A stretch of DNA of 64,000 nt from Acidobacteriota bacterium (GCA_965197285.1 OZ240092.1:3947337-4011336), one strand, 5' to 3'. Counted from the first letter of the stretch, positions 31,849 through 58,254 are shown. The notes: a model not told the origin generated them from the sequence alone. Program-made: numbers and translations.

Positions 31849-32261
31849 TGCTGCTCGACACCGGAGCACTCGTCTCCCTTCTCGACCGAAGCCAGCCGGC
31901 TCATCCTGACGTATCCAGGTTCTTTGCAGCCTGGGATGGCAAGGCGGTCAGCACTGAAGCGGTTCTCACCGAAGCAACTCACCTTCTGGGGAGAGTCGCA
32001 GGAGGTATCGAAGCCTGCCTGAGTTTCTTTCTCCAGGGGGGAGCCGTCCTCGTGCCCCCATCCATTGTTTCCCTCAGACGAGCCCGCGAGCTGCTGATCC
32101 AGTACGCGGACCTTCCGATGGGCTATGCCGACGCAACGCTCGTGGTTCTCGCCGAAGAACTTGGAATCAGCCGGATTTTGACGACCGATAAGCGAGATTT
32201 CGGGATCTACCGCCGGGCAGGCCGGACACGGTGGCGACCAGTCCAATGCCGACGCCGATGA
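31836..32261 (+). CDS. vapC: PIN-domain toxin, VapC family
   Basis: LLDTGALVSLLD (Asp8), TEAVLTEATHLL, LTTDKRDFGIYR acidic residues in PIN order; start overlaps antitoxin stop. Confidence 0.75.
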   Translation: MAGELLLDTGALVSLLDRSQPAHPDVSRFFAAWDGKAVSTEAVLTEATHLLGRVAGGIEACLSFFLQGGAVLVPPSIVSLRRARELLIQYADLPMGYADATLVVLAEELGISRILTTDKRDFGIYRRAGRTRWRPVQCRRR

Positions 32262-32299
32262 AGATCAGCGACCAGGGCAGCCCGCTACAGGCGGCGGGC

Positions 32300-33096
32300 T
32301 CCCATGAGCGCGTCGTAGGGGCCGTTTTTGAGGGCTCAGGGGATCTTCGTCTCGCTCCTACGTTGGGGATGGAACGGCAACAGCTGGCGTTTCACAGCAA
32401 GGAGCCGGTGCTGCAAGCCGAGTTCGAACGTGCCTTCTTCATGTTCACCGACGATACCGCACAGGAGTTGGAGGGCCAGCTCAAGTTTGGTGAGGGCAAC
32501 TCAGCTCAACTGGAGAAGCACTACCGCGAGTGGATCAAGAAGTTGCAGCGTTACGGCCGGGACTGGACGCCTCGTTTGCTCAAGGGACTACTGGCGGAGG
32601 ATCCTACTCAGCATGCGTTTTTCGTAGCCGAAATTTGTACTCAAGGGAAAGTTTCGACCAGCTCAACTTTCACCCTCACCTGCACAGCCTGGCGGCGGAG
32701 GGAGGTTGGGGCCGAGACAACGGCACTTTTCAGTCCGTCAGTTTGCTGAACTCGGACATCCTCAGCGCTATTTTCCGCCAACAAGTGCTGGAAATGATGG
32801 TGCAAAAGCGCCGCCTCAGCCCCGCCTTCGCTCACAAGATCTCCCACTGGCGCCACAGCGGAGGCTTTCAAGTCTACTGCTCCCAGACCGTACAAGCCGA
32901 CGACCGACAGGCCCTCGAGCGGCTGGCTGCCCGCGCTACTGCGCAAGATCTACGAGTCGACCCCTTCACTTGTCCTCGTTGCTCGGGGCCGATGAAAATC
33001 GTGGCGGTCATCGAGCAACCGGAAACCATCCGCCAGATCCGGCTCTCCACCGATTCCATCTATTGGGACGACGTGCCCACCTGGCCGGATTCCTGA
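32300..33096 (+). pseudogene. IS91-family (Y2/HUH) transposase C-terminal remnant, internally frameshifted near 32640
   Basis: FHPHLHSLAAEGGWGRDNG...HWRHSGGFQV...ERLAARAT...CPRCSGPMKIVAVIEQPETIRQI resembles the conserved C-terminal half of IS91/ISCR transposases; N-terminal half absent; two overlapping frames. Confidence 0.5.
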
Positions 33097-33412
33097 GATC
33101 TACGCCCCCAGGAATCGACGGCCCTGCTTGGAGTGCGTCTTGTTTTGCCCTCGTTCCGTTGCCTTGTTGCTGCGCTCGTGTCCCTCCCCCACGCTTCCCT
33201 TGTTACATCCCCGAAACACCCCGCCTTCCGGCCCTCACGGCTCCTTGTAGGCCCATCTTGACCCGCATTTCAGGACTTGCTACCCTCAGCTTGAAAAGCA
33301 AATTACTATCTTCTTGCCTGTGGTGATTCTTATCTGGCTGGACCGGCCACGTTCGGGAGGGAGTTCTGGAGTTACCCGAATTGATGTTTCAGCTGTGGCA
33401 TAGGAGTTAGCT

Positions 33413-34375: not shown

Positions 34376-34630
34376 TCAGCCCCCGAAGCTGCGGAAGGAT
34401 GGCCGCCGGGATTCATATTCGCGGATGCGGTCCTCGACCTGCAGAGTGAGTCCCACGTCGTCGATACCCTGCAGAAGGCATTTCTTTCGAAAGCGATCGA
34501 TTTCAAAGCCGAAGCTGAGGGCGGGGCCGGCTTGAATCGTTTGTGACTCCAGGTCGACTCCTATTTCGTAGCCGCGTCTTGCCAGGGCGGCATCGCGGAG
34601 TTGAGTCACCCGGTTCTCTGGCAGGACGAT
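34376..34630 (-). pseudogene. leuD: 3' remnant of leuD (3-isopropylmalate dehydratase small subunit); only about 95 C-terminal codons remain
   Basis: ...IVLPENRVTQLRDAALARRGYEIGVDLESQTIQAGPALSFGFEIDRFRKKCLLQGIDDVGLTLQVEDRIREYE matches the LeuD C-terminus (FxIDxFRxxCLLxGLDDIGLTLQ); the N-terminal GCGSSREHAPWAL region is absent on either side of the IS. Confidence 0.6.
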
Positions 34631-36014
34631 GAGCTATGGTCGGAAGTTGTGTATGAGAGGCGGCGTATCCTGAATCCGTGACCTTCAATCATGGATTCAC
34701 CCGGAGACCGAGAAGGAGGATACGCCTTGAAGAAAGATACTGTAGTTTCCATCGACGAACCAACCACAACGAAGGATGCCTTGACGGAAGTTCTGCGTGA
34801 AGGAGCACAGAAGCTTCTGGCTGAGGCGGTTCAAGCCGAGCTGGAGGAGCTGCTGGAAGAGTACGAGGGTCAGCGTGATGGCCAGGGCCGCAAACGTCTG
34901 GTTCGCAACGGCTACCTGCCGAAGCGTGAGATCCAGACAGGGATTGGAGGAATCCCGGTTCGGATTCCGCGGGTTCGAGACCGTGGAACTGGTGAGGAGT
35001 CGGAGGAGATCATCCGCTTTCGTTCCAGCCTGGTGCCTCCCTATCTGAGACGTAGCAAGAGCGTGGAGGAACTGCTGCCCCTGCTTTACCTGAAGGGGAT
35101 CTCCACAGGAGACTTCTCGGATGCGTTGAGTGCACTGTTGGGGCCGGATGCACCGGGACTGTCGGCCAAGACGATCAGCCGGCTCAAAGGCAAGTGGGTC
35201 AAGGATTATGAGAAGTGGAGGCTGCGTGATCTCTCCAACAAGCGCTACGTTTACGTTTGGGCCGATGGCGTGTATGCCAACGTTCGCTTTGACGACGGCC
35301 GGCTTTGCCTTCTGGTGCTGATCGGAGCCCGTGCGGACGGCAAAAAGGAGCTGATTGCCGTGGAAGATGGCTACCGGGAAAGTGAGCAATCCTGGTGGGA
35401 GTTGCTGCGGAATCTGCGCTCCAGAGGCCTGCACAGGGGACCAAAACTGGCGATTGGCGACGGAGCGCTCGGATTCTGGAAAGCCCTGGCCAAGATCTAC
35501 GGCAATACGCGACAGCAACGCTGCTGGATGCACAAGACGGGCAATGTGCTCAACTGTCTGCCCAAGGCCGTTCAGCCAAAAGCAAAGACGGCGCTGCATC
35601 AGATCTGGATGGCTGAAACTCGAGAGAATGCCTATAGGGCCTTTGACGAGTTCATTGCCACCTATCAGCTGAAGTTTCCAAAGGCCACGTCCTGCCTGGC
35701 CAAGGACCGGACAGAGTTGCTGGCTTTCTACGATTTTCCAGCCGAGCACTGGCCACATCTGAGAACCACAAATCCGATCGAGTCGACCTTCGCAACCGTG
35801 AGACTGCGAACGGCCAAGACTCGAGGCTGTTTGTCCAGGCAAACCATGCTGACGATGGTCTTCAAACTATGCAGAAGCGCTGAGAAAAGATGGCGCCGGC
35901 TACAAGGTTGCCGGCGCCTCGGAGAGGTCATAGAAAACGTCACATTTGTAAACGGAATCCGTGAAAACGAGGTCGCCGCCTAATGGGTCCGTACCCAACT
36001 TTTGACAATAACTC
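34631..36014 (+). mobile_element. IS256-family insertion sequence (1384 bp) flanked by 9-bp direct repeat CAGGACGAT
   Basis: imperfect about 25-bp terminal IRs (GAGCTATGGTCGGAAGTTGTGTATG / rc GAGTTATTGTCAAAAGTTGGGTACG); TSD at 34622-34630 and 36015-36023. Confidence 0.8.
34691..35983 (+). CDS. IS256-family (mutator-type) transposase
   Basis: DDE transposase with the IS256 C-terminal signature (…YDFPAEHWPHLRTTNPIESTFATVRLRT…). Confidence 0.9.
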   Translation: MDSPGDREGGYALKKDTVVSIDEPTTTKDALTEVLREGAQKLLAEAVQAELEELLEEYEGQRDGQGRKRLVRNGYLPKREIQTGIGGIPVRIPRVRDRGTGEESEEIIRFRSSLVPPYLRRSKSVEELLPLLYLKGISTGDFSDALSALLGPDAPGLSAKTISRLKGKWVKDYEKWRLRDLSNKRYVYVWADGVYANVRFDDGRLCLLVLIGARADGKKELIAVEDGYRESEQSWWELLRNLRSRGLHRGPKLAIGDGALGFWKALAKIYGNTRQQRCWMHKTGNVLNCLPKAVQPKAKTALHQIWMAETRENAYRAFDEFIATYQLKFPKATSCLAKDRTELLAFYDFPAEHWPHLRTTNPIESTFATVRLRTAKTRGCLSRQTMLTMVFKLCRSAEKRWRRLQGCRRLGEVIENVTFVNGIRENEVAA

Positions 36015-36500: not shown

Positions 36501-38080
36501 AAGGGTTTACAAAAACAAAGACCCTAAACAGGAGCTACGGCAATGTCAAAAACAGTCTGCCAGAATACCCTGCCATTTCACAGCCACAGAAAGATCACGA
36601 CGCGTTTTGATGGAGGGAGCCTCACTTCCGACGCAGGATGGTTGTTGTTTGGATCCCTGGATCGTCAACATCGATTGTGCGAGGGCTTCAGTTCGTGTAT
36701 TGCGGAAAGTCGAGACCGACGCTACGTTCGTCATGACCTGTTGAAGTTGATCCGACAACGAGTCTTGCAGATCGTGGCCGGCTACGAAGACTGTAACGAC
36801 GCCGATACGCTGCGCTCGGATCCGATGCTCAAGACAGTCTGTGATCAGTTGCCAGAGAGCGATCCCGATTTGGCCACCCAGCCGACTTTCTCCCGCCTGG
36901 AGAACTCCGTCACCAAGAAGGATCTGATGCGTCTGAGCCGGTGGCTGCCAGGCCGTTATGTGCGCTCCCTGAAGAAGAGACGTCCCAGCAAGATCATCCT
37001 GGATCTGGACAGTACCGACGACCACACTCACGGCCAACAGGAGTTCTCCTTCTACCACGGGTATTACCGAAACCACATTCTGCATCCTTTGCTGATCTTC
37101 GATGCCGACACGGGAGACCTGGTCTGTGCCGTGTTGAGACCTGGCAACAAGGGGGCTGCCTCTCACATCGTGCCCATTCTGAAGCGAGTCGTGGAGGCCA
37201 TCCGACAAGCAGTGGGGACGGATGTCGAGATTGAGATTCGGGCCGACAGCGGCTTTGCCACGCCTCGGCTCTACGAGTTCTGTGAATGTGAAGAGAATAA
37301 ACTCCAGTATGTCATTGGGTTAAGTCGAAACCCTCGCCTGCAGCGAGTGGTCGAGCCCCTGCTGGATTCGACTCGGCTGAGGTTCCTTGAGCTGGAGGAA
37401 AAACAGCGTCAGTTTGACGAGTTTCTTTATCGAGCCCACAGCTGGGATCGATCCCGTCGCGTCATTGTCAAAGTGGAGGTCGATCAGCGTGGCATCAATC
37501 GTCGCTTTGTAGTTACCAACCGGGACGATCTCTGCTCCCAATCACTTTATGACCACTACACAAACCGAGGGCAGACCGAGAACTTCATCAAGGCCTTCAA
37601 GAATCATCTGAGCATGGACCGACTCAGCTGTCATCGATTCCTGGCCAATCAGTTTCGACTCCTCCTGCATGCACTGGCTTACCAGATGTCCGTGCGCCTG
37701 CGCGACTATCTTCACGGAACCCCCTGGCACAAGCTCGAAATCGAAACCTTACGTCGTCGGGTCCTCAAGATCGGGGCCCGGATCCGACAAACCACTCGAC
37801 GCATCTGGGTCCATCTTTCCTCAGCCTTCCCCGAACAACCCCTCTTCCACCTCGTCTTGAGTCGCCTGAACTCCAGTTAGCTTTTCCCAGCTCCCCCGAA
37901 AAACCGCTTCCGACACTCATCCAGGCCCAGATCTGTCTGAAATTCACTCCCCAAACCACTCAAACGCCTCGCCAACCCATATTCTTCGCAAATCCGCCTG
38001 TCACACCTGCCCGCTTCCGAGTTGGGCCACTTCTCAAGTCGTTTTTCAACACCGAACTACGGTTCTTGCATAATCCGGGC
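36460..38080 (+). mobile_element. IS1380-family insertion sequence, copy a (about 1.6 kb; ends approximate)
   Basis: transposase 36543-37880; candidate IRs GCCCAGGAAAAAGGCCGTAGCTC / rc GCCCGGATTATGCAAGAACCGTAGTTC. Confidence 0.6.
36543..37880 (+). CDS. IS1380-family DDE transposase
   Basis: FDGGSLTSDAGWLLF, LDLDSTDDHTHGQQE, YHGYY, ADSGF, YTNRGQTENFIKAFKN signatures. Confidence 0.9.
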   Translation: MSKTVCQNTLPFHSHRKITTRFDGGSLTSDAGWLLFGSLDRQHRLCEGFSSCIAESRDRRYVRHDLLKLIRQRVLQIVAGYEDCNDADTLRSDPMLKTVCDQLPESDPDLATQPTFSRLENSVTKKDLMRLSRWLPGRYVRSLKKRRPSKIILDLDSTDDHTHGQQEFSFYHGYYRNHILHPLLIFDADTGDLVCAVLRPGNKGAASHIVPILKRVVEAIRQAVGTDVEIEIRADSGFATPRLYEFCECEENKLQYVIGLSRNPRLQRVVEPLLDSTRLRFLELEEKQRQFDEFLYRAHSWDRSRRVIVKVEVDQRGINRRFVVTNRDDLCSQSLYDHYTNRGQTENFIKAFKNHLSMDRLSCHRFLANQFRLLLHALAYQMSVRLRDYLHGTPWHKLEIETLRRRVLKIGARIRQTTRRIWVHLSSAFPEQPLFHLVLSRLNSS

Positions 38081-38082
38081 TA

Positions 38083-38523
38083 GTGGCTGACCGCACCGAG
38101 TTCTGGTGGAACGAGCGCAAGCCCGACGAGCCGATGCTGTGGGAAAGCAAGATCGAACTCGGCGAGAAGTTTTTTAACGAGATTATCCGCCACCCAGTGC
38201 CGCTGGACATGAATACCCTCAACGCGCTCAAACGCTGCTCCCTGGGTCTGGATCTCTACCTCTGGCTCGCCTACCGCACCTTCGCTCTCCGCGCTCCGCA
38301 ACGGCTCACCTGGAAGCAGTTGTACCGTCAGTTCGGCCCGCATCCGGCCAAGGCGAACGATCCCGCCACCGTCAAGAACTTCCGCCGCAAAATCCTACGG
38401 GAGTTGAAGAAGATCAAGATCGCGTGGCCGGACCTAAACTACACTACGGCTCCGGGGGTCTTGATTCTCTTGCCCTCGACGCCCATCATCCTTCCGGGGC
38501 AGCAGCTTTCACTCCCGGAGTAG
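38083..38523 (+). pseudogene. C-terminal fragment of a plasmid replication initiator (RepA_C domain); N-terminal half missing
   Basis: VPLDMNTLNALKRCSLGLDLYLWLAYRTF...TWKQLYRQFG...NFRRKILRELKKIKIAWPDL matches the RepA_C family; begins (GTG) right at the IS1380 end, preceded by an in-frame TAG. Confidence 0.6.
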
Positions 38524-38643
38524 CCCTCAAGTCGCGCGCGTCCCGCACCAAGGATCGCCCCAGACGACCCCGCGCAGTCGCGGGTGGCCTCTTCTAGTGC
38601 CCGCGCCGCTGAAAGTTCGCGCCAGCCCTCCTGCGGCAATTTT

Positions 38644-38830
38644 TTCGAGAGGTTTATCCACAGGGCCACGTAATCCGGCTAGTTTTCCACGCCTAAAGTG
38701 GACCCCTGGAACAATTAACCTTTCGCCTAAAGTGGACCCTCTCAGCCAAAATCCCTTCGCCTAAAGTGGACCCCCATACAAGTAGTAAAGAACAAGTAGT
38801 AGGAGCGACTACTTCTGTGGATAAACAGGA
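38644..38830. promoter_or_regulatory. plasmid oriV-like segment: DnaA boxes flanking three iterons and an A/T-rich direct-repeat patch
   Basis: TTATCCACA at 38654-38662 and its complement TGTGGATAA at 38816-38824; 3x CGCCTAAAGTGGACCC at 38690, 38724, 38758 (34-bp period); CAAGTAGTAAAGAACAAGTAGTAGG. Confidence 0.5.
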
Positions 38831-39757
38831 AGGAAAAACCGGAGAAACCAGAACCACAGAAAAAGAGGGGCCGGGCCTCCTAAAGCCGTAGAAACATTTT
38901 ATTAGTTGAGTTGCGACCGATCCTGCATATCCATTTGCATTCCCAGATCTCGAAGAATCTCCATCTTCGCTTTTACCTCGGAAGGGCCGATCACCCGGAG
39001 TGTGTCAAAGAACTCGCGCAGGCTCTCCGGGCCCAACCCACAAACGTTCAGGGCCTCGCCGACCTGGCCGCAGTTGGGGCAGAGCGTCTGTCCCGTCCCG
39101 ATGTCTTCACCCTCGACGCGCCGCACAGCGTGATCGACTGGGTGGACGACTCGCCCACCCAGTCCACGCGCAAGTGGTGATAACGATCTTGGTTCTTCAT
39201 GGCCTCTACAGATTACCTCAGTTTAGCGTTCCGTTCTGGGACAATTTGCGCAAAGGAACGGTTACGCACCAATTTGACCCGGTAACGATAACCCCGTCGC
39301 TGTGGCGGTCCGGGACAGCTGTTACGGTGGCAGTCCGTCACACCTTCCCCTGCCGCTCAATGGCAGGTGAGCATAGTTTATGTGACTGGACGGCACTGTC
39401 AGAAGAAACGGGCTTGAGTTGGCGAGATGCGCCTTGTAGTGTCTTGGGATGAAGAACCCATTTCGCTATTTCAGGACTTCGCCCGAGATCATTCGCCTTG
39501 CCGTGATGATGTAGGTGCGCTTCCCACTGTCGCTACGCAATGATGTGCCGGTTTCCGTCCATCGGCGTTTCAAGACAGCGTGTAGCGCAACCAGCCGCCA
39601 GATGGTCGCTGAGTTACGACACGTGATCGAAGCCCGTATATTGGAGCTTGAAAGTGAGATCGGAAGCGTTGGGCAGGATGACCTCTGCTAATGCGCATGT
39701 TACCTTTTGCCAGCACTTTCTTGTTGAAATTGGCTTCTAGATGACGCCTGATAACAA

Positions 39758-42700
39758 TTGTCGCGGGTTGATGGGAGGCTTGATGATGGACTTTGCTGGA
39801 ACCGAAGGGACTCAGGGACTCGGCGAATGCAGCACTTCTGTGTTGGCCGGCCGGGTTGGGCGACGGTGCGGCCCGGCGCGGCCCATCCGGCTGGCGACTC
39901 GGGTGGCCGAAGCCGGCGCGGGCCGGTTGCGCCGCTTGTTGCCCTTGCCGGGGCGGCAGCGGCGGCCCCCGCCCTCGCCCAGACCCCCTCGCACTGCAAC
40001 CCGTCGGACCGCAACGAACTCTGGTGCGCGACCCTGACGGTGGAGCTAGACCACCGGTTCGCGGATACTTGGGCGGATATTATCGGGTTTGTCGCCCCCG
40101 ATTCCGGCACGAGTTCTCCTCCTTACGGGAGCGTCGCGCCCGGGCGCACCTTCACTTGGCGCGGGAACTCGTTCAGAGTGGACGTTCTCCGTGTCCGGGG
40201 GATGGGGCAGTTGATATTCAGGTTCGGCCCGGACCGTCTCGGGTCCGGCGTTTTCGCGCTGGAGGTCGGGACGGGAGCGAGCAAGCGAAGCTTCCCAATT
40301 CTCCTTAACGGTTCAAGGTTCCAACAATGGTCCGACACGGGCCTGGCCGGGGCCTGGTCGGCGGGCGACAGCGTCCCGGTCAAGCTCGTCCGCATCGCCA
40401 CCGTGCCGGGCAGGCCGGCCTCCCTGCACGCGGTCCCGAACGGGCAGACGCAGATCGACCTCACCTGGGGCGCCCCCGAGGATGGCGGCGCGGATATCAC
40501 GGGCTACAGGATCGAGGTGTCCACCGACGGAGGCCTCACGTTCAGGGAGCTCGTGGCCACCACGTCCAGCCGGAGCACGACCTACAGCCACACCGGTCTC
40601 ACGCCCGGCAGGACCTATCACTACAAGGTCAAGGCGATCAACTCCGTCGGCACGGGCCCCAGATCGTTGATTCCCAGCGCCACCGCCGGCGCCCCCCCGC
40701 ACAACGTCAACGCGACTGCGCAGTGCGACGCGACCGACAGCAACGAACTGTGGTGCGCCACCCCCTGACGGTGGGCAAACATTCTGCCTTCTTTGGGCTT
40801 GGCAACGTTGCCGGCAGAGTACTTGGCAGTGCCCAACCCGCGTCCTTCACCCTGGACTCGCAGGAAATCCATGTCAGGAAACTGATGTACATTGCCGGAT
40901 CGCGGGCCCTCGATTTCGAAATCTCTCACGGTCTGGGCTCCGGCCACTTCTCGCTGGAGATCGGCACGGGTCGGATCAAGAAGTCCTTCCCCATCGTGAA
41001 CCGGGGAACCCGAACGGTGTTCCGCTTTTCCTTGCAAGGCCTCAACTGGCAGCTCGTCGATACGGCCCCCGTCACGCTCAAGCGCGCCGGCCGCCCGGGC
41101 AGGCCGACCTCGCTGCGCGCGACCGCGAACGGGCCGAGCCAGGTCGACCTCACGTGGAACGCCCCGGAGGATGACGGCGCCGGCCGGATTACGGGCTACA
41201 AGATCGAGTGGGAGGAGCAGGAAGTTTATTTTGCGAAAACCCTCGTGGAAGACACGGGCAACGCGAAGACGACCTATGGCCACACCAGCCAAGGCCCCAT
41301 CCCTCTCAAAGGGGGCGAACTTTACTTTTACCGGGTCTCGGCGATCAACTCCGCCGGAACGGGTCCCGCAACCGAATGGGTGGAGATTGTCGCCAACACC
41401 GCGAGCCCGGCGCTCGGGCACTGCAACCCGTCCGACCCGGACGAGTTCTGGTGCGCCACCATGACGGTCGACACGTGGAGTAGTACGAACGCCAATTGGT
41501 TCGGTTTCCAGACTTATGGGTCAGACCACGGCGACCTATCCCCCAGGATGTTTGCCTGGCAGGGGACCAGCTACACGGTCAGTCAGTTGATCTTCGAACA
41601 AGCCAAACAGGACCTAGATTTCATAGAGATACGGTTCCGTATAAATCCCCTAGGGGCGGCGACGTTTTATGAACAGGACTACGTGCTGCATGTCGGAAAC
41701 CAGCGGTTCCCGTTTCAAGCTGCCAGTGGCTTTCCGGGGGCAGGTCAACGCTATCACGAATGGCTGGATACGGACGTCGACTTCCTGGGGATGTTTTCGA
41801 CGGGCGACCAGGTCATCGTGAAGCTGACGCGCACCAATCACCCGCCAACGTCACGTGACAACCGGGTCTACATCGAGGAGAACACGGGCCATAACTTCTC
41901 GCGTCCGGAGTTTCCATTCTCCGATGAAGACCAGGGCGACCGGCTGGAACGCGTCAGGATCGTGACCGTGCCCGCGGCGAGGAAAGGCACCCTGACCCTC
42001 GACGGCTCTGCGGTGAGCGCCGGCGACACGGTGACGCCCAGTCAACTGGAGGCTGGCCTTCTCAGGTACTCGCCGCCCCCATGGCGGTTTGGCCGGAACC
42101 TCGCGAGATTTGCCTTCAGAGTGAGCGACGGCAAGGACGAGAGCGCGGCAGACTACACGCAGGCGATCAGTGTGACCCGCTCCTCCGGTGGCTACCACGT
42201 CGGGGGTGGCGGCAAGCTTTCGCAGAAATTCACCACGGGCCCCAATCCGGCCGGCTACCGGCTGGAGGACGTCACGGTCGGGATCATACAGGGGCCGCCC
42301 GCCGTGCCGGCGTTCTCGATCTACAGGCCGGTCTCCCGCCTCCAGTCGAAACCGGGGACCGAAAAGGTCCTCGACTTGACCGGCAGCGTGGCCACCACGG
42401 GGGACCAGACCTTCACGCCCGCACCGGGCACGCCCGACAGCGCGCGGATCCTCGAACCCGATACCAGCTATCACGTGGTGTTCGAGGCGGCCTCGAACTC
42501 CCCCGCAAGTGTGCGGCTGCAGCAGAGCACGGCCCCCCCGACCTGAGCAGAGTCCCGGAGGGATGGTCCTTGCAGAACTGGCATTACTATTACGACCGCA
42601 CCCCCCCGAATACCAGCGTCCCGTGGGCCTGGGGCATCAGCACCAGCGGCATCGTCCTGATCGGGATCACCGCCACTCCGGGGGGGGGCGCCGCAGATCG

Positions 42701-43939
42701 CGGTCGATCCGCCGATCGTCGAGGGCGCGCCCCGCCTCAGCGGCGCAGCCGACGGCGGAACCTGGCGGGAGGGCGAGACCGTCGAGGTGGCGCTCACCTT
42801 CAGCGAGGCGGTGGACGTGGACACGACGGACGGCAGGCCGTCGGTCGGCCTCGCGCTCGGGGGACACGCCGCCGCTCCCCGCCGACTATCTGCGGGGCAG
42901 CGGCACGACGGAGTTGGTCTTCGGCTACACGCTGGTCGATGGCGACGGCGACCACAACTCCGTGCTGGTGATGGCGAACAGCCTGACGCTCGATGGCGGG
43001 ACCATCCGCAGCCAGGAGAAGCAGGCGGACGCGCTGCTGGACCACAACGGCGCGGGGACACAGGGCGGCGGCGGCCCTCTCAACGCCGCGCCGACGGCAA
43101 GCTTCCAGGACGTACCGGAGCACCATGACGGGGAGACGGCCTTCACCGTGGGGCTGCGCTTCAGCGGTGAGCCCGCGGGGCTCGATGCCAAGCGGGACGC
43201 GGCCTCGGTGCTCGAGGTGACGGGCGGGACCGTGACGGGTGTGCGGCGGACGGAGACGGGCGCGAGCCCGGTCTGGGAGGTGACGGTCGCGCCCTCGGGC
43301 ATCGGCGACGTGACGGTGCGGCTGCCGGCGCGGGCCTGCGGCGAGGCGCACGCGGCGTGCATCGGCGGGCGGGCGCTGGCCGAGGCCCTGGAGGCGGCGG
43401 TGCCGGGCCTGGCGATGACGGCAGGCTTCACGCAGGCGCCGGATGCGCATGACGGCTCGGGCGCCTTCGAGCTGCACCTTGCGTTCAGCCACGAGCCGAA
43501 GGGCTTCAGCTACCGCACGGTGAGGGATGCGCTGTTCGATATTGAGGGCGGGCGCATCGAGCGCGTGTGGCGCAACCCGCGCGGGCAGAACCGCCAGTGG
43601 GGCATCGAGGTGGTCCCGGCGGGGGATGGCGCGGTCACGCTCACCGCGCGGGCCACAACCAGCTGCGCGGCGCAGCATGCCGCCTGCGACGACGCGGGGA
43701 GGAAGTTCGCGGGAGACCTGGTGCTCACGATCGAAGGTCTCGACGCCGGCGGGGAGCAGACCGAAGATCCGCCCGACCCGATCACCGCGCGCTGGTCACA
43801 GGCGCCCGCCGAGCACGACGGGACCAATGCGTTTAAGATCCGCTTCCATCTGAGCGCGTCACCGGGAAGCCTGAGCTACGTGACGGTCCGGGATTCGCTC
43901 TTCGCCGTGACGGGGGGCAGCATTGACCTTGCCCCCTAA
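39758..43939 (+). pseudogene. giant secreted repeat protein (adhesin-like). It has an N-terminal signal/TAT-like peptide, three ~130-aa Cys-motif modules interleaved with two fibronectin type III domains (third module alone), an Ig-like repeat and three ~105-aa C-terminal tandem repeats. It is interrupted by at least four frameshifts at G/C homopolymers (plus an in-frame TGA at 42544 after a C7 run) and truncated at 43923 by IS3
   Basis: ORFs 39758-40768, 40327-42546, 42787-43128 and 42509-43939 join into one protein if single-base indels are assumed at C5 (about 40753), C7 (about 42535), G9 (42680-42688) and G5 (about 42855); FN3 signature (TWxAPxDDGGxxITGYxI...YxYxVxAxNxxGxG); local GC about 70%. 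Confidence 0.6.
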
Positions 43940-43990
43940 AACGGGTCCAAGTTGAATGTTAGGATTTTCGGTTTTAGGAAGGAGGCAAGG

Positions 43991-44269
43991 ATGGCACGGA
44001 AGCGGTTTACGGCAGAACAAATCATCATGAAGCTGCGTGAGGCAGAGGCAGGTCTAGCCCAAGGACAGACGGTGGGCCAGATGTGCAAACAGATTGGGGT
44101 GACCGAGCAGACCTACTACCGGTGGCGCAAGGAGTACGGAGGGCTTCGACTGAATCAGGCCAAGCGGTTGAAGGTGTTGGAGAAGGAGAATGCCCGGTTG
44201 AAGAAGCTAGTGGCAGATCTGTCTTTGGACAAGCAGATCCTAAAGGAAGTTTCCTCGGGAAACTTCTAG
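43991..44269 (+). CDS. IS3-family transposase OrfA (HTH plus leucine zipper)
   Basis: MARKRFTAEQIIMKLREAE...[21 protein letters not shown]; RBS GGAAGGAGG upstream. Confidence 0.8.
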   Translation: MARKRFTAEQIIMKLREAEAGLAQGQTVGQMCKQIGVTEQTYYRWRKEYGGLRLNQAKRLKVLEKENARLKKLVADLSLDKQILKEVSSGNF

Positions 44270-45162
44270 GCCCGGCGAAGAGGAGACGCGCAGTGGTGTG
44301 GGTGAGGGAGAGATTGGGAGCAGAGCGCGTCTCCGAACGTCGGGCCTGCCAAGTGCTGGGACAGGCTCGATCGACCCAGCGAAGGGAAAGGCATATCCCC
44401 GATGATGAGGCTCGATTGGTGGCTGAGGTGGTGGAGTTGGCCACGCACTACGGGCGATACGGCTACCGACGGATCACGGCCATGCTTCGTTGGGAAGGGT
44501 GGAAAGTGAATCACAAGCGGGTGGAGAGGTTGTGGAGACAGGAGGGGCTGAAAGTCCCGTCCAGACAGCCGAAACGAAGGAGACTGTGGCTTCATGATGG
44601 ATCCTGCGTTCGGTTACGAGCGGCTCACAAGGATCACGTCTGGAGCTATGACTTCGTGCATGAGCGAACCCATGACGGAAGGGCCTTTCGATTATTAACC
44701 CTACTGGATGAATACACCCGGGAGTGTCTGGCCATTGAGGTTCAACGACAGATGAATCACCAGGACGTGTTGGATCGATTGGCGGAGTTGTTCGTGGATC
44801 GGGGAGTGCCTGAATACATTCGGTCCGATAACGGGTCGGAGTTTACGGCTCAGGCGGTTCGGGACTGGCTGAAGGCTGTTGGGGTGAGGACCTTACACAT
44901 CGAGCCCGGCAGCCCCTGGGAGAATGGATATGTGGAGAGCTTCAACGGAAAACTGCGGGATGAACTGCTGAACGTAGAAGTCTTCGACACGTTGTGGGAA
45001 GCGAAGGTGTTGGCCGAGAGATGGCGCAGGGAGTACAACCAGCGACGGCCTCACAGCGCCTTGGCCTATCGGCCGCCGGCGCCGGAGGCCAGATTACCCA
45101 GGTCCCAGGCCCAGAGTTCTATACCATGGAGTGGACTTCAAATGGTCCCAGGTCTAACTTAG
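44083..45162 (+). CDS. IS3-family transposase OrfB (integrase/DDE core), presumably expressed as OrfAB by -1 frameshifting around 44240-44270
   Basis: DDE core with [12 protein letters not shown] and [16 protein letters not shown] motifs. Confidence 0.8.
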   Translation: MQTDWGDRADLLPVAQGVRRASTESGQAVEGVGEGECPVEEASGRSVFGQADPKGSFLGKLLGPAKRRRAVVWVRERLGAERVSERRACQVLGQARSTQRRERHIPDDEARLVAEVVELATHYGRYGYRRITAMLRWEGWKVNHKRVERLWRQEGLKVPSRQPKRRRLWLHDGSCVRLRAAHKDHVWSYDFVHERTHDGRAFRLLTLLDEYTRECLAIEVQRQMNHQDVLDRLAELFVDRGVPEYIRSDNGSEFTAQAVRDWLKAVGVRTLHIEPGSPWENGYVESFNGKLRDELLNVEVFDTLWEAKVLAERWRREYNQRRPHSALAYRPPAPEARLPRSQAQSSIPWSGLQMVPGLT

Positions 45163-45191
45163 AGAGTGGACTCGTTCCTGGGGGCAGGTCA

Positions 45192-50612: not shown

Positions 50613-50819
50613 GCCCAACCGGCTGGCACAACAGGCCCCTGCGAGACGGACCGCTATCAGCGCTTCGAGGCCACACGGCGCGTGACCTTGCCCCCTAAAA
50701 CGGGTCCAAGTTGAATGTTAGGATTTTCGGTTTTAGGAAGGAGGCAAGGATGGCACGGAAGCGGTTTACGGCAGAACAAATCATCATGAAGCTGCGTGAG
50801 GCAGAGGCAGGTCTAGCCC

Positions 50820-52552
50820 GCATAGATCACCGATTTGGAAATGAAGGTGATTTTGGCAGGCCGGAACGGTTTTCTGAGAGTTTCGCTATCGATCCGGTCC
50901 AGGTCGAGTGATGCGGTGGTGTGGAGGGTCGTGAATGGAGCGTTTTTCGGGCTCGGAAGAGGGTGACGGAACGGATTCAGGCAGAGCTCGGCCTGAGCGA
51001 TGGAACGATTTCGTTTTTGGGGCGTTTGATCGGGACAGACCTCAGCAGCGCAGAGGAATGGCCTGGAGGTTTCGAACGACGGCAGCGAAGACCTCGCTGT
51101 AGGGATAGGCTTCCGACATGGAGATCCAGACGTGGCGGACCGTGAGGCGGACCTGGGCGCCGATCTTGAGGAGCTTCAAGCGAATCGTCTGACACTGAGC
51201 GCGAGCCAGGGGGGTCTGCTTCAGTCCGAGACGACGCAAGGCGTGCATGAGCATGTAGGCGGCGGAGGACAGATACAGCCGGAGTTGATTGGCGCGCATC
51301 GTTGCCGCGCTGGTCCGGTCGGCGAACAGATCCAACTGCTGTTCTTTTATGCGGTTCTCCATGTCGCCCCGCGCACAGTAGAAGTCTTCGTAGAGCGCGC
51401 GGGCCCCCAGGCGTTCCGGCGACAGGGAGGTGACGATGAATCGGGGATTGGCGCCTTTCTCCAGGAACTCGGCCTTGCCGACGACGCGTCGCTCCGAGGT
51501 CCAACTGTGGCGAGTCCGGTAGCGGAAATCCTGGAACACCCGCGCCGGTCGCCCGGTGGCGTTGAACTCGGCTTCGGCCTGAGTCATCGCTTCGGCGATC
51601 TCTGACTTGAGCCGATCATTGTTGGCCAACCCCATCACGTAATCCACGTGATGGTCTTCACACCAGCGGAGCAAGTCATCCCGGCAAAAGCCAGAGTCGG
51701 CCCGGATGACGATCGAGACCTCCGGCCAGCTCTGCCGAATCCGGCCGACGATCCGTTCCAGTTCCTCCGCCGATCCCGCGGCCCCATCGATATTGGAACA
51801 CCGCAACCGGGCGCACAGCAGATGCTCCCCCGAGAAGATGTACAGCGGGAGATAACAGTAGTGGCGGTAGTAACCGTGAAAGAACCGGCCTTCCTGCTGG
51901 CCATGGATCGGGTCGTCGGTCGCATCCAGATCCAGCACGATCTCCTCGGGCGCCGATTCGTGGGACTCCACGAAGGCATCCACCATCCAGCCGTCGATCC
52001 GGTCCGGGTCCATCGCGATCTTCTTGTACCGCTCCTGCTCATCGACCTCGGCGCCGGTCAACTCCAACCGGTTCAGCGTACACCTGCCCGCCAGCGCCTT
52101 CCCCCGATCTGAGGCCTGCCGCCGCCGCTCCCCCAACGGATCGGCCTTATTCACCGCCACCGCCAGCATCGGATCGGTGCGCAACTGATCATGATCGTTC
52201 AGATCCTCGTACCCCAGACAGAGTCCGTAGATGCGCTGCCCCAACAACTCCTCGACCGTGTGTTCGATCAACCGCGGATCCCGGTGATCCCTGAAGCACG
52301 CGGTCAGTCCGGCAACGAGACCCGTCCGCTGCTCGACCTCGCGTAACAGCAGCACCCCTGCATCGGAGGTGATCTTCCCGCCGTCGAACCGCGCCTTCAC
52401 TTTGCGTTGAAATAGTCCGTGAAATTCGAACCTGGCTTGTTTACACTCTGTTCTCATAAGGGCCGCCTCCGTTTGGCTTTGAAGTCTTTCATTCAAAACG
52501 CTTTATACCAAACAGGGCGGCCTTTTGAGGTCCTATCGGTGAGAAATGGCGG
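50820..52552 (-). mobile_element. IS1380-family insertion sequence, copy b (a different member from copy a), nested inside IS3 copy 2
   Basis: IRs GCATAGATCACCGAT / rc CCGCCATTTCTCACCGAT; target CTAGCCC present on both sides (TSD 4-7 bp, exact ends ambiguous). Confidence 0.65.
51042..52496 (-). CDS. IS1380-family DDE transposase
   Basis: FDGGKITSDAGVLLL, LDLDATDDPIHGQQE, FHGYY, ADSGF, YCARGDMENRIKE signatures. Confidence 0.9.
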   Translation of the reverse strand: MNERLQSQTEAALMRTECKQARFEFHGLFQRKVKARFDGGKITSDAGVLLLREVEQRTGLVAGLTACFRDHRDPRLIEHTVEELLGQRIYGLCLGYEDLNDHDQLRTDPMLAVAVNKADPLGERRRQASDRGKALAGRCTLNRLELTGAEVDEQERYKKIAMDPDRIDGWMVDAFVESHESAPEEIVLDLDATDDPIHGQQEGRFFHGYYRHYCYLPLYIFSGEHLLCARLRCSNIDGAAGSAEELERIVGRIRQSWPEVSIVIRADSGFCRDDLLRWCEDHHVDYVMGLANNDRLKSEIAEAMTQAEAEFNATGRPARVFQDFRYRTRHSWTSERRVVGKAEFLEKGANPRFIVTSLSPERLGARALYEDFYCARGDMENRIKEQQLDLFADRTSAATMRANQLRLYLSSAAYMLMHALRRLGLKQTPLARAQCQTIRLKLLKIGAQVRLTVRHVWISMSEAYPYSEVFAAVVRNLQAIPLRC

Positions 52553-53661
52553 CTAGCCCAAGGACAGACGGTGGGCCAGGTGTGCAAACAGATTGGGGTG
52601 ACCGAGCAGACCTACTACCGGTGGCGCAAGGAGTACGGAGGGCTTCGACTGAATCAGGCCAAGCGGTTGAAGGTGTTGGAGAAGGAGAATGCCCGGTTGA
52701 AGAAGCTAGTGGCAGATCTGTCTTTGGACAAGCAGATCCTAAAGGAAGTTTCCTCGGGAAACTTCTAGGCCCGGCGAAGAGGAGACGCGCAGTGGTGTGG
52801 GTGAGGGAGAGATTGGGAGCAGAGCGCGTCTCCGAACGTCGGGCCTGCCAAGTGCTGGGACAGGCTCGATCGACCCAGCGAAGGGAAAGGCATATCCCCG
52901 ATGATGAGGCTCGATTGGTGGCTGAGATGGTGGAGTTGGCCACGCACTACGGGCGATACGGCTACCGACGGATCACGGCCATGCTTCGTTGGGAAGGGTG
53001 GAAAGTGAATCACAAGCGGGTGGAGAGGTTGTGGAGACAGGAGGGGCTGAAAGTCCCGTCCAGACAGCCGAAACGAAGGAGACTGTGGCTTCATGATGGA
53101 TCCTGCGTTCGGTTACGAGCGGCTCACAAGGATCACGTCTGGAGCTATGACTTCGTGCATGAGCGAACCCATGACGGAAGGGCCTTTCGATTATTAACCC
53201 TACTGGATGAATACACCCGGGAGTGTCTGGCCATTGAGGTTCAACGACAGATGAATCACCAGGACGTGTTGGATCGATTGGCGGAGTTGTTCGTGGATCG
53301 GGGAGTGCCTGAATACATTCGGTCCGATAACGGGTCGGAGTTTACGGCTCAGGCGGTTCGGGACTGGCTGAAGGCTGTTGGGGTGAGGACCTTATACATC
53401 GAGCCCGGCAGCCCCTGGGAGAATGGATATGTGGAGAGCTTCAACGGAAAACTGCGGGATGAACTGCTGAACGTAGAAGTCTTCGACACGTTGTGGGAAG
53501 CGAAGGTGTTGGCCGAGAGATGGCGCAGGGAGTACAACCAGCGACGGCCTCACAGCGCCTTGGCCTATCGGCCGCCGGCGCCGGAGGCCAGATTACCCAG
53601 GTCCCAGGCCCAGAGTTCTATACCATGGAGTGGACTTCAAATGGTCCCAGGTCTAACTTAG
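52546..53661 (+). CDS. IS3-family transposase OrfB (copy 2)
   Basis: near-identical to 44083-45162. Confidence 0.8.
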
Positions 53662-53687
53662 AGAGTGGACTCGTTCCTGGGGGCAGG

Positions 53688-54557
53688 TCAGCGACTGCCT
53701 CCGAGCTTCTGTCGAAACCGCCGGGCCGCATGCGCCAGGTCGATTCCGGCCAGCACCAGGCGGGTCTGGAGCGGGTGGGCCCTGGGAGCGTAGTGTTTGG
53801 CATGGAAGATCTTCATGGCGTCAAAAAAATGCCTGGTGTTCACCGCCGTGTCCTGGTCTGAGCTGCGACTCTTCAGGTGGGTAACTGTGGCCCCGGCATA
53901 GTACTCCACCAGCCAGCCCGCCTGGAGGGCCCGATAGCAGAAATCCAGGTCCTCGCCATAGAGGAAAAACCCTTCATCCAGGAGCCCGATCTTCTCGGTC
54001 AGTTCTCGGCGAAACATCAGAAACGAACCGGAGACCGCTTCCACCGGCTGCGTCTTGTTTTCGTCCAGAGAGGTCAGGTTGTAGGCTCCGAACTCCCGAC
54101 TGCGGGGAAACAGTCGGCTCAGCCCGAGAAAGCGATAGATCGAATTTCGGACCGTGGGTATGGAGCGCTGGCAGGCCAGCTGGAGACTCCCGTCGGGATT
54201 CAGGATCCGGCATCCCACTACACCCGTCTGCGGGCGGCTCCGAAGGTAGTCCAGGGTCTTCTCGATGGCGTTGTCGTGAATGATAACGTCCGGATTCAGG
54301 AGCAGGAAAAAGGGGGCAGTAGCGTGACGGATTCCACGATTGCAGGCTTTGGCAAACCCCTCGTTGTGCCGATTGAGGAGAAGCACGGGTGAAGAACAGC
54401 GGAGTTCGTTTTCCAGCCGGGACTGGTCAGAGGAAGCGTTGTCCACGACAACCACTTGGATCTGGTCTTCTTGATTCGCCCTTCGTATGCCGGACAGACA
54501 CTGAAGAAGGTCGGCAGTCGAGTTGTAGTTCACGATGATGACGGATAGTTGCATCAC
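53688..54557 (-). CDS. GT2-family glycosyltransferase; its stop codon is supplied by the IS3 terminal TCA (last about 6 native codons replaced)
   Basis: VIIVNYNSTADLLQCL...VVDNASSD GT2 N-terminus; reconstructing the pre-insertion sequence gives ...LGGSRRVASKR*. Confidence 0.8.
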   Translation of the reverse strand: MMQLSVIIVNYNSTADLLQCLSGIRRANQEDQIQVVVVDNASSDQSRLENELRCSSPVLLLNRHNEGFAKACNRGIRHATAPFFLLLNPDVIIHDNAIEKTLDYLRSRPQTGVVGCRILNPDGSLQLACQRSIPTVRNSIYRFLGLSRLFPRSREFGAYNLTSLDENKTQPVEAVSGSFLMFRRELTEKIGLLDEGFFLYGEDLDFCYRALQAGWLVEYYAGATVTHLKSRSSDQDTAVNTRHFFDAMKIFHAKHYAPRAHPLQTRLVLAGIDLAHAARRFRQKLGGSR

Positions 54558-58169: not shown

Positions 58170-58254
58170 GGGACTTCTACCCTTCTACTTCACGCCGGTT
58201 TCCCGCTCAAGGAAGTTCCCCGCCGGATGGTATAATCTCGGCCCCTGCGGGGTG

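What the first reader, a model, noticed from the sequence alone, without database searches (positions are those of the whole stretch)
39758..43939. 4.2-kb adhesin-like gene broken only at G/C homopolymer tracts (four frameshifts plus one stop)
Four annotated ORFs in three frames read as one continuous Cys-module/FN3/Ig-repeat protein. This requires a 1-nt indel at each of four homopolymer runs: C5 near 40753, C7 near 42535 (immediately before the TGA at 42544), G9 at 42680-42688 and G5 near 42855. Protein-level repeat periodicity is preserved across every junction, for example …SVGLALG|DTPPLPADYLRGSGTTELVFGYTLVDGDGD…. Breakage confined to homopolymers means one of three things: systematic homopolymer sequencing or assembly error, slipped-strand phase variation of a surface protein, or recent pseudogenisation. 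The GC here (about 70%) is well above the rest of the window, and the gene ends abruptly inside IS3.
Basis: seen in the sequence. Interest (0 to 1): 0.7.

Follow-up and report, generated by a model that had tools for sequence, protein, structure and literature searches.

The report
Decayed plasmid-derived surface-protein gene
This is the dead remnant of a large, plasmid-derived cell-surface protein gene, broken by four real frameshifts and cut off by an insertion sequence, so it is an ordinary pseudogene and neither a genetic switch nor a sequencing error.

Summary
The core observation holds. Window 39827-43923 reads as one 1,370-residue protein only if the frame changes 2>1>0>1>2 at C5 (40761-65), C7 (42533-39), G9 (42680-88) and G5 (42859-63). 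Two details are wrong. There is no separate nonsense mutation: the TGA at 42544 is simply out of frame. The lesions are also not all 1-nt. Against close relatives that read through, they are +2, -1, -2 and +1 nt.

The breaks look real. A second assembly shows 17 substitutions and no indels over 37.5 kb. The other 101 G/C runs of 5 or more in the window carry no frameshift. A 5x contig from another sample is identical over 6.5 kb.

Phase variation fails. Four lesions would all have to revert, and an IS3 element (43924-45191, no target duplication) has removed the 3' end.

Substitutions against two 93-94% identical copies are spread evenly over codon positions (dN/dS 0.6-0.9). Coding and flanking DNA diverge equally.

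The locus (repA fragment plus gene) is collinear with a circular 89.8-kb conjugative plasmid contig whose copy is broken at different sites.

Verdict: a multi-hit pseudogene in an IS-rich region. Low interest. The parent family contains modules with no Pfam model.

The parts
38083..38523 (+). repA' fragment. It is the C-terminal 146 aa of a plasmid RepA, and it marks the plasmid origin of the segment that carries the gene.
   Evidence: Pfam RepA_C matches profile positions 100-179 of 181 only. It is 79% nt identical to the 3' part of the full-length 323-aa repA on the circular plasmid contig L090, in the same order and orientation relative to the gene.
39827..40765 (+). Coding segment 1 (codons start at positions congruent to 2 mod 3). 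It holds a putative signal peptide, Cys module 1, FN3-1 and the start of Cys module 2. The start codon is uncertain.
   Evidence: GC3 frame, Pfam fn3 E = 2.7e-16, and 93% nt identity to L090. The plasmid copy uses another upstream frame because of an 8-nt indel at about 39942.
40761..40765 (+). Junction 1. A C5 run that carries a 2-nt insertion inside the conserved WCAT[LM]TVG motif. It creates TGA at 40766-68.
   Evidence: L090 reads GCC ACC ATG ACG GTG GGC in frame, where the window has GCC ACC CC CTG ACG. All matched modules of the family have WC-xx-[LMIV]TV with no extra residue.
40766..42539 (+). Coding segment 2 (codon starts congruent to 1 mod 3). It holds the rest of Cys module 2, FN3-2, Cys module 3, a cadherin-like domain and the first part of an unassigned beta domain.
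   Evidence: GC3 frame, fn3 E = 3.6e-11 with Cadherin_3/4 below threshold, and homology to P0027, P0126 and L004.
42533..42539 (+). Junction 2. A C7 run with one base missing immediately 5' of it. The out-of-frame TGA follows at 42544-46.
   Evidence: L004 has ACG GAC CCC CCC GAC where the window has ACG G-C CCC CCC GAC. Both copies have C7. P0126 reads QQSTDPPDVSRVPEGW straight through.
42540..42688 (+). Coding segment 3 (codon starts congruent to 0 mod 3): DLSRVPEGWSLQNWHYYYDR...GITATPGG.
   Evidence: GC3 frame, and aligned to P0126 and more than 20 homologues.
42680..42688 (+). Junction 3. A G9 run that is net 2 nt shorter than in the closest in-frame relative.
   Evidence: L004 has CCGGTGGGGGGGTCGCCG (P V G G S P) where the window has CCGGGGGGGGGCGCCG.
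42689..42863 (+). Coding segment 4 (codon starts congruent to 1 mod 3): APQIAVDPPIVEG...DGRPSVGLALG.
   Evidence: GC3 frame, and tblastn hits of P0027, P0127, P0128, P0134 and P0137 at 42694-42885 in this frame.
42859..42863 (+). Junction 4. A G5 run with one extra G (G4 to G5) next to a C>A substitution.
   Evidence: L004 has CTC-GGGGCCACG where the window has CTCGGGGGACACG. P0126 has the same length across the junction.
42864..43923 (+). Coding segment 5 (codon starts congruent to 2 mod 3). It holds the rest of a beta-sandwich domain, two complete 'xHDG..AF' modules and about 45 residues of a third module of about 108 residues.
   Evidence: GC3 frame, 62-67% identity to P0027, P0127, P0134 and P0137, and the internal repeat seen by tblastn.
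43924..45191 (+). IS3-family element that truncates the gene. Its ends are TGACCTTGCCCCC...GGGGGCAGGTCA. It supplies the last codons DLAP and the stop.
   Evidence: Pfam HTH_Tnp_1 plus rve/rve_3. The ends were defined against a second copy at 50683-50819 plus 52553-53690. That copy has a 3-bp duplication (GCG), whereas this one has CAT versus ATG flanks. No remainder of the gene lies downstream.

Best explanation
The locus is a genuine, multiply inactivated pseudogene. It is the relic of a large secreted or surface protein gene that arrived on plasmid-derived DNA and is now stranded between insertion sequences.

The ancestral gene encoded, in order:
- a signal peptide;
- repeats of a cysteine-containing beta-sandwich module alternating with FN3 or cadherin-like domains;
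- further Ig-like beta-sandwich domains;
- tandem 'HDG' modules;
- judging from relatives, a C-terminal domain of about 225 aa that looks like an outer-membrane anchor.

In this genome an IS3 element, probably together with an IS-associated deletion, removed the 3' end. With selection relaxed, small indels accumulated at or next to G/C runs in this GC-rich sequence: +2, -1, -2 and +1 nt. Translation from the native start would stop at TGA 40766. At most a 313-residue fragment (signal peptide, one module and one FN3) could be made.

Shown here: the frame changes, their exact form relative to in-frame relatives, agreement between assemblies, the IS boundary, the neutral substitution pattern and collinearity with the plasmid.

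Inferred: the order of events, slippage as the mutational mechanism, and the surface or adhesin role.
For: 1. The frames and the reconstruction are sound. GC3 switches frame at the four sites. The corrected translation has no stop. A continuous alignment to P0126 (88%) and more than 20 intact homologues crosses J2-J4. L090 reads through J1.
2. The breaks are not artefacts.
- The window and ENA contig ERZ25072076:ctg244364 differ by 17 substitutions and 0 indels over 26543-64000.
- The broken 313-, 598- and 341-aa products occur on two contigs, one of 5.75 Mb in NCBI.
- Frameshifts occur at 4 of 21 G/C runs of 5 or more in the gene against 0 of 101 elsewhere (p = 7e-4).
- A 5x contig from another sample is 100% identical to the 11x contig over 6,530 nt.
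3. The gene shows the hallmarks of decay.
- IS3 abuts the gene at 43924 without a 3-bp duplication, whereas the other copy has one.
- No gene remainder lies downstream.
- dN/dS is 0.86 against L004 and 0.60 against L090, with substitutions spread 32/27/31 and 34/25/35 over codon positions.
- Coding identity (94.3%) is about the same as upstream non-coding identity (93.5%).
- Indel-to-substitution ratios are 3:90 and 4:95 in coding DNA against 2:74 in non-coding DNA.
4. Decay is a local habit.
- The two closest copies are also truncated fragments. L004 is cut on both sides, with an IS-like ORF next to its 3' break.
- L090 has its own G3>G4 and C7>C8 frameshifts and an internal deletion.
- A GT2 gene in the same window is frameshifted identically in four contigs from three samples.
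5. The origin is a plasmid. The repA-then-gene order is shared with a circular 89.8-kb contig that carries VirB4, VirB3, TrbC and ArdC.
Against: - I could not inspect raw reads.
- The independence of the two assemblies is inferred only from their SNP differences. They could share reads.
- The contigs are at about 11x coverage, and their naming suggests a long-read assembler, whose residual errors are indels.
- All the coding-region 1- and 2-nt indels among the three copies sit at G/C runs, which is also what homopolymer miscalls would look like.
- There are no in-frame stop codons in 4.1 kb despite apparently neutral divergence. Either inactivation is recent, or part of the divergence arose under weak or diversifying selection rather than neutrality.
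- dN/dS near 1 is also seen in surface proteins under diversifying selection.
Confidence: 0.86

Rival explanations
1. Assembly or sequencing artefact. The gene is intact in the cell, and some or all of the four frame changes are homopolymer miscalls in a low-coverage long-read consensus.
For: - Contig names (ctg..._11x_l) indicate about 11x coverage.
- Long-read metagenome assemblers leave about 4 indels per 100 kb on mock data, and frameshift-truncated proteins are a recognised error class (PMC13087279).
- All four sites touch G/C runs.
- The sister copies differ from the window by C7/C8 and G3/G4 length changes.
Against: - A second assembly has identical indel states over 37.5 kb that contain about 130 runs of 5 or more.
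- The rate in the gene is 0.98 frameshifts per kb against 0.017 per kb in the rest of the window, and against about 0.04 indels per kb in the benchmark.
- J1 and J3 are 2-nt events, and J2 and J3 involve non-run bases (A, T) relative to L004.
- Two other C7 runs in the gene (40692, 42601) are in frame.
- A 5x contig from another sample matches exactly over 6.5 kb.
- The IS truncation and the codon-position-neutral substitutions cannot be produced by indel errors.
Confidence: 0.08
2. Slipped-strand phase variation. The G/C tracts are contingency tracts that switch a surface protein on and off.
For: - G9 is within the length range of known hypermutable poly-G tracts (established knowledge of Neisseria, Campylobacter and Haemophilus contingency genes).
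- The product is a surface-type protein.
- The lesions sit at G/C runs.
Against: - An ON state would need four simultaneous corrections of +1, +1, -1 and -1 in frame terms. Only one tract is 8 nt or longer.
- Even a fully corrected ORF is truncated in the middle of a module by IS3 and lacks the family's C-terminal domain.
- No tract-length difference is seen between the two assemblies.
- In the in-frame relative the G tract is interrupted (GGTGGGGGGGT), so it is not a conserved repeat.
- The substitution pattern is neutral.
Confidence: 0.03
3. Rescue by programmed ribosomal frameshifting or transcriptional slippage, so that a full-length product is still made.
For: Transcriptional slippage on long homopolymers can partly rescue frameshifted genes in some reduced genomes (general knowledge). 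G9 could slip.
Against: - Four sites of opposite sign, three of them on runs of 5-7 nt, would all have to be bypassed.
- The mature 3' end is missing.
- No stimulatory element was looked for, because the premise already fails on the IS truncation.
Confidence: 0.01

Closest known systems
Bacterial pseudogenes in IS-rich regions (IS-truncated, frameshifted genes, as described for recently host-restricted or IS-expanded genomes such as Shigella, Yersinia pestis and Sodalis; from general knowledge)
   Same: - Multiple small indels favour short homopolymers.
- The gene is truncated by an IS element.
- dN/dS approaches 1.
- Neighbouring genes are also broken: a GT2 gene and repA, leuD and transposase fragments.
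   Different: Nothing substantive. The host here is an unidentified environmental bacterium. Its citrate synthase is at most 60% identical to any GTDB species representative.
Poly-G/C contingency (phase-variable) surface-protein genes of Neisseria, Haemophilus and Campylobacter
   Same: A G/C homopolymer lies inside the coding region of a surface-type protein. One tract reaches 9 nt.
   Different: There are four lesions rather than one. Two are 2-nt events. The tracts are not conserved in relatives. There is no length heterogeneity between assemblies. The ORF is irreversibly truncated.
Homopolymer indel errors in long-read assemblies (the 'IDEEL'-type truncated-protein signal; PMC13087279)
   Same: Short ORFs in alternating frames line up on one homologue, with breaks at homopolymers.
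   Different: The breaks are concentrated about 60-fold in one gene. They are reproduced in a second assembly and accompanied by IS truncation and neutral substitutions.
Large multi-domain FN3/cadherin-like/Ig-like surface proteins of Gram-negative bacteria (Bap/Lap/SiiE-like adhesins and autotransporter passengers; from general knowledge)
   Same: - A string of beta-sandwich domains.
- Two FN3 domains above the Pfam threshold, and Cadherin_3/4 below threshold.
- Foldseek returns only multi-Ig proteins such as pilins, complement components and cadherins.
- Relatives carry Calx-beta, Big and He_PIG domains.
   Different: - The Cys module (HCxxSDxxELWCATLTVG...VPVKLxR) and the 'HDG' module match no Pfam model.
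- No RTX or T1SS features were seen.
- The C-terminal domain of relatives gives only weak beta-barrel hints and is absent from this copy.

Membership tests
Pseudogene (degraded copy of a protein-coding gene) | The reading frame is disrupted relative to intact homologues. | tested here: met
   Four frame changes are needed to align with P0126, P0027, P0128 and others. L090 reads through J1.
Pseudogene (degraded copy of a protein-coding gene) | Relaxed selection: substitutions independent of codon position, dN/dS near 1, and divergence equal to that of flanking non-coding DNA. | tested here: met
   dN/dS is 0.86 and 0.60. Codon-position counts are 32/27/31 and 34/25/35. Coding identity is 94.3% against 93.5% for non-coding. 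These are pairwise values, so they cannot say in which lineage constraint was lost.
Pseudogene (degraded copy of a protein-coding gene) | The lesions are reproducible rather than assembly-specific. | tested here: met
   The same broken products occur on two contigs. There are 0 indel differences over 37.5 kb. Independence of the read sets was not verifiable.
Pseudogene (degraded copy of a protein-coding gene) | Loss of essential parts of the gene. | tested here: met
   IS3 cuts the third HDG module at 43924. Nothing lies downstream. Relatives continue with further domains and a C-terminal domain of about 225 aa.
SSR-mediated phase-variable (contingency) gene | A single hypermutable tract whose length change alone toggles an otherwise intact ORF. 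| tested here: not met
   There are four lesions plus an IS truncation.
SSR-mediated phase-variable (contingency) gene | Tract-length heterogeneity among reads, isolates or assemblies. | tested here: inconclusive
   Two assemblies have identical tract lengths. A JGI metagenome scan for J3 flanks with a variable run found nothing. Reads were not available.
SSR-mediated phase-variable (contingency) gene | The repeat tract is conserved in functional relatives. | tested here: not met
   In L004 the G run is interrupted by T, and in L090 the J1 site is ACCATG.
Homopolymer sequencing/assembly artefact | A comparable error rate at equivalent homopolymers elsewhere on the same contig. | tested here: not met
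   0 of 101 G/C runs of 5 or more outside the gene carry a frameshift, against 4 of 21 inside (p = 7e-4).
Homopolymer sequencing/assembly artefact | The indels are pure length changes of a run. | tested here: not met
   J2 lacks an A beside an unchanged C7. J3 lacks two T's. J1 is +2 in a former C3. Only J4 is a simple +1.
Homopolymer sequencing/assembly artefact | Raw reads disagree with the consensus. | not testable with these tools
   No read data were accessible.
FN3-domain bacterial surface protein | FN3 domains above the Pfam gathering score. | tested here: met
   fn3 scores 97 bits with two stretches at residues 197-281 and about 424-520. PDB sequence hits are to titin and contactin FN3 domains.
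Type Va autotransporter | A C-terminal Autotransporter beta-barrel (PF03797). | tested here: not met
   It is absent from the window copy, whose 3' end is lost. In relatives, the terminal 235 aa gave PF03797 at E = 0.026 in only 1 of 12 members, and OMP_b-brl and Phage_OMP once each. A profile search against PDB found nothing. I therefore do not file it as an autotransporter. The terminal ...ARW/F signature remains only a lead.
Type Va autotransporter | An N-terminal Sec signal peptide. | tested here: inconclusive
   The sequence shows ...SRRGPVAPLVALAGAAAAAPALA|QT. No predictor was available. The plasmid copy uses a different upstream frame.
IS3-family insertion sequence (the truncating element) | orfA (HTH_Tnp_1) and orfB (rve) in overlapping frames, terminal inverted repeats TG...CA, and a 3-bp target duplication. 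| tested here: met
   Pfam hits and the ends TGACCT...AGGTCA. Copy 2 has the GCG duplication. Copy 1 lacks one, implying a rearrangement.

The most novel reading that the evidence does not exclude
Probability: 0.3. Interest if true: 0.4.

Novelty: new member of a known kind. Interest (0 to 1): 0.15.

Why it matters
- For annotation, the fragmentary ORF calls on the public contig (313, 598 and 341 aa) should be merged and flagged as one pseudogene. They should not be counted as separate 'FN3 proteins' or treated as assembly errors to be polished away.
- The case shows that breakage confined to G/C runs does not by itself indicate phase variation or sequencing error. Comparison with in-frame relatives, IS boundaries and codon-position statistics settles the question without reads.
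- The parent family, and the conjugative plasmid that carries it, may merit a separate look as an uncharacterised group of surface proteins.

Tried and rejected
- Codon-usage sliding-window frame path: too noisy at 58% GC. I replaced it with GC3, ORF scoring and Pfam coverage checks.
- GTDB genome scan with the gene's own peptides: no hit, so the source genome and close relatives are not among the species representatives.
- GTDB scan with citrate synthase: best identity 59-60%, scattered over many phyla, so the taxon remains unresolved.
- PLSDB plasmids, by DNA for 37900-39830 and by protein for the 3' part: only an 85-150-nt similarity next to IS6 transposases, and no relative of the gene.
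- First protein search with the whole reconstruction: swamped by tandem-FN3 proteins whose alignment over the Cys module is spurious. The 3'-half query and the module profile found the useful relatives.
- PDB sequence searches: FN3 only, and nothing for the C-terminal domain.
- Foldseek on the P0126 model (mean pLDDT 68): only generic multi-Ig matches with low TM scores.
- P0260 has exactly 1,370 aa and looked like a possible intact orthologue. It is only 33-49% identical, so the length match is a coincidence.
- My recollection that the L090 237-aa ORF is an autotransporter barrel was not borne out by Pfam, NCBIfam or PDB searches. I keep it only as a weak lead.
- JGI metagenome scan for the J3 flanks with a variable run: no match.
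- The net length change of the four lesions is 0 (+2 -1 -2 +1), so the first and last segments share a frame. I treat this as coincidence (1 in 3), because the intervening 2.1 kb matches homologues only in the shifted frames.
Full report
**Observation.** Between 39.8 and 43.9 kb the third-codon-position GC signal moves from one frame to another four times, in the order 2>1>0>1>2. The switches lie at about 40765, 42540, 42685 and 42860. Each coincides with a G/C run: C5 at 40761-65, C7 at 42533-39, G9 at 42680-88 and G5 at 42859-63. The minimal corrections are one C added at each of the first two sites and one G removed at each of the last two. With these, the translation runs 1,370 residues from ATG 39827 to the stop at 43937 with no internal stop. 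There are five coding segments, not four. G/C runs of 5 or more, with 1-nt flanks, cover 3.9% of the gene, so four of four indels landing there is far from random placement (p about 2e-6). Slippage mutations and sequencing errors both favour such sites, however.

**The reconstruction is biologically right.** P0126 is a 534-aa ORF on ENA contig ERZ25766727:ctg362030 (locus L004). It is 88% identical to the reconstruction over residues 684-1175 and crosses junctions 2, 3 and 4 in a single frame. More than twenty proteins of 600-1,000 aa align in one HSP over residues 796-1304 at 46-53% identity. Motifs are conserved on both sides of each junction. P0027, an intact 1,802-aa protein, has the same overall architecture. 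It is 62% identical over the C-terminal third and 29-35% over the N-terminal modules. For junction 1 the informative relative is L090, which is 93% identical in DNA over window 38681-41516 and reads straight through.

**What the lesions actually are.**
- J1: L090 has GCC ACC ATG ACG (WCATMTV). The window has GCC ACC CC CTG ACG, a 2-nt insertion that turned a C3 into a C5. All matched modules of the family show WC-xx-[LMIV]TV with no extra residue.
- J2: the window lacks the A that precedes a C7 present in both copies.
- J3: L004 has GGTGGGGGGGT where the window has G9, a net loss of 2 nt.
- J4: G4 has become G5, next to a C>A change.

So only J4 is a simple one-base run-length change.

**Real or artefact?** The window is not the ENA contig itself. 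The two differ by 17 substitutions over 26543-64000, and 14 of those lie inside one multicopy transposase. They show no indel at all. The broken products (313, 598 and 341 aa) are recorded on two contigs, one a 5.75-Mb NCBI contig.

Outside the gene the window has 101 G/C runs of 5 or more and, as far as ORF structure and Pfam coverage can show, no frameshift at any of them. That is 0 of 101 against 4 of 21 in the gene (Fisher p = 7e-4).

The only other frameshift I found is in a GT2 gene at about 58575. It sits in GAAATAGGGAAAGC, which is not a long run, and it is identical in four contigs from three samples. An 11x contig and a 5x contig from different samples are 100% identical over 6,530 nt, so the consensus quality of these assemblies is high. 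Published benchmarks put residual long-read assembly indels at about 4 per 100 kb (PMC13087279). That is roughly 25-fold below the density seen here. I could not examine reads, and the independence of the two assemblies is inferred only from their SNPs.

**Phase variation.** An ON state would require all four sites to be corrected at once, and only G9 is of contingency-tract length. The tracts are not conserved in the in-frame relatives. Even the corrected ORF is truncated. An IS3-family element starts at 43924 (TGACCTTGCCCCC...) and ends at 45191. It contributes the last residues DLAP and the stop. It is flanked by CAT and ATG, whereas the second copy in the window has a clean 3-bp duplication, GCG. 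No further piece of the gene lies downstream. The 3' end was therefore lost in an IS-associated rearrangement.

**Signs of neutral decay.**
- Against L004 (1,479 nt, 90 substitutions) dN/dS is 0.86, with 32/27/31 differences at codon positions 1/2/3.
- Against L090 (1,680 nt) dN/dS is 0.60, with 34/25/35.
- Coding identity to L090 (94.3%) equals that of the 1.1-kb non-coding upstream stretch (93.5%).
- Indel-to-substitution ratios are alike in coding DNA (3:90, 4:95) and non-coding DNA (2:74).
- The absence of in-frame stops suggests that inactivation is not ancient.

**Origin.** Upstream lies a repA fragment at 38083-38523, which covers only the C-terminal part of the RepA_C profile. Beyond it lie two transposase genes. 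L090 comes from a contig labelled circular (ERZ26167216:ctg487190_10.98x_c, 89.8 kb). It carries VirB4/TrbE, VirB3, TrbC, ArdC, a Tn3 transposase and a full-length 323-aa RepA, followed by the same gene in the same orientation.

The plasmid copy is itself damaged at other places. It has G3>G4 at window-equivalent 40362 and C7>C8 at 40691. An internal deletion joins Cys module 3, across a TAG, to a 237-aa C-terminal ORF in the same frame. L004 is a fragment cut on both sides, with an IS-like ORF next to its 3' break.

The window copy is the most complete of the three. Its GC (67.5%, against 58.7% for the rest of the window) fits foreign origin. The host could not be named, because its citrate synthase is at most 60% identical to any GTDB representative.

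**What the protein was.** The order of parts is as follows.
- A putative signal peptide.
- Cys module, FN3, Cys module, FN3, Cys module.
- A cadherin-like domain, below the Pfam threshold.
- An unassigned beta domain, which contains J2 and J3.
- A well-conserved beta-sandwich, which contains J4.
- Three 'HDG..AF' modules, the last cut by IS3.

Pfam recognises only the two FN3 domains above threshold, and PDB sequence search finds only FN3.

Many relatives end in a domain of about 225 aa, homologous to the L090 237-aa ORF, that finishes ...ARW/F. It gives only weak, scattered hits to OMP beta-barrel and Autotransporter models (E about 0.02 in 3 of 12 members) and none to PDB. An outer-membrane anchor is therefore a lead, not a finding, and I do not classify the gene as an autotransporter.

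**Verdict.** This is an ordinary multi-hit pseudogene of a plasmid-derived surface-protein gene in an IS-rich neighbourhood. Of its three interpretations, only pseudogenisation survives. Interest is low. The modest residual interest lies in the uncharacterised modules of the parent family.

Noticed in passing
window 58153-59188 (+): A GT2 glycosyltransferase gene in the polysaccharide cluster is frameshifted at about 58575 (GAAATAGGGAAAGC, no long homopolymer). Pfam covers profile positions 1-105 in one frame, and the rest reads in the next frame. The site is identical in four contigs from three samples.
   Followed up: yes
window 50683-53690: The second IS3 copy (3-bp duplication GCG) is itself split by a 1.7-kb DDE_Tnp_1_4 element at 50820-52552, which is flanked by a 7-bp duplication CTAGCCC. 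This is a nested IS insertion.
   Followed up: partly
window 51459-52344: 14 of the 17 substitutions between the window and the near-identical ENA contig cluster in this one transposase gene. This suggests copy-to-copy heterogeneity or consensus mixing among IS copies.
   Followed up: no
L090 1-20579 (ERZ26167216:ctg487190_10.98x_c): A circular 89.8-kb contig with conjugation genes (VirB4/TrbE, VirB3, TrbC), ArdC, a Tn3 transposase and resolvase, and a full RepA. It carries a sister copy of the gene with different frameshifts and an internal deletion.
   Followed up: partly
L090 11731-12444; C-termini of P0176, P0171, P0161, P0053 and of the large tandem-FN3 proteins (P0003, P0008, P0018, P0020 and others): A conserved C-terminal domain of about 225 aa ends in ...ARW/F. 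It has no Pfam hit above threshold and only weak hits to OMP_b-brl, Phage_OMP and Autotransporter models. It may be an undescribed outer-membrane anchor shared by two otherwise different protein architectures.
   Followed up: partly
[not shown]
   Followed up: partly
window 32231-33326 and 34376-34633: More gene debris. Three overlapping same-strand ORFs are present, one with a partial Y2_Tnp (IS91-type) match. A 77-85-aa leuD fragment lies between a methyltransferase gene and a Mutator-family transposase gene.
   Followed up: no
L006 and L007 (ERZ25067264) versus L005: Two sister-strain contigs share 3-nt, 1-nt, 1-nt and 7-nt indels relative to the window strain within the polysaccharide cluster, and their genes there are called in more pieces. 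The lineage seems to be shedding this cluster in more than one strain.
   Followed up: partly
window 39942 region (L090 about 10152): An 8-nt indel between the window and the plasmid copy changes which upstream frame feeds into the signal-peptide region (MQHFCV... versus MMDFAGT...). Both versions end in ...AGAAAAAPALA|QT, so the true start and the ancestral state are unclear.
   Followed up: partly
window 59083-59090: A G8 run lies near the 3' end of the broken GT2 reading frame, just upstream of the next glycosyltransferase gene (ORF start 59127). I did not examine whether it affects either gene.
   Followed up: no
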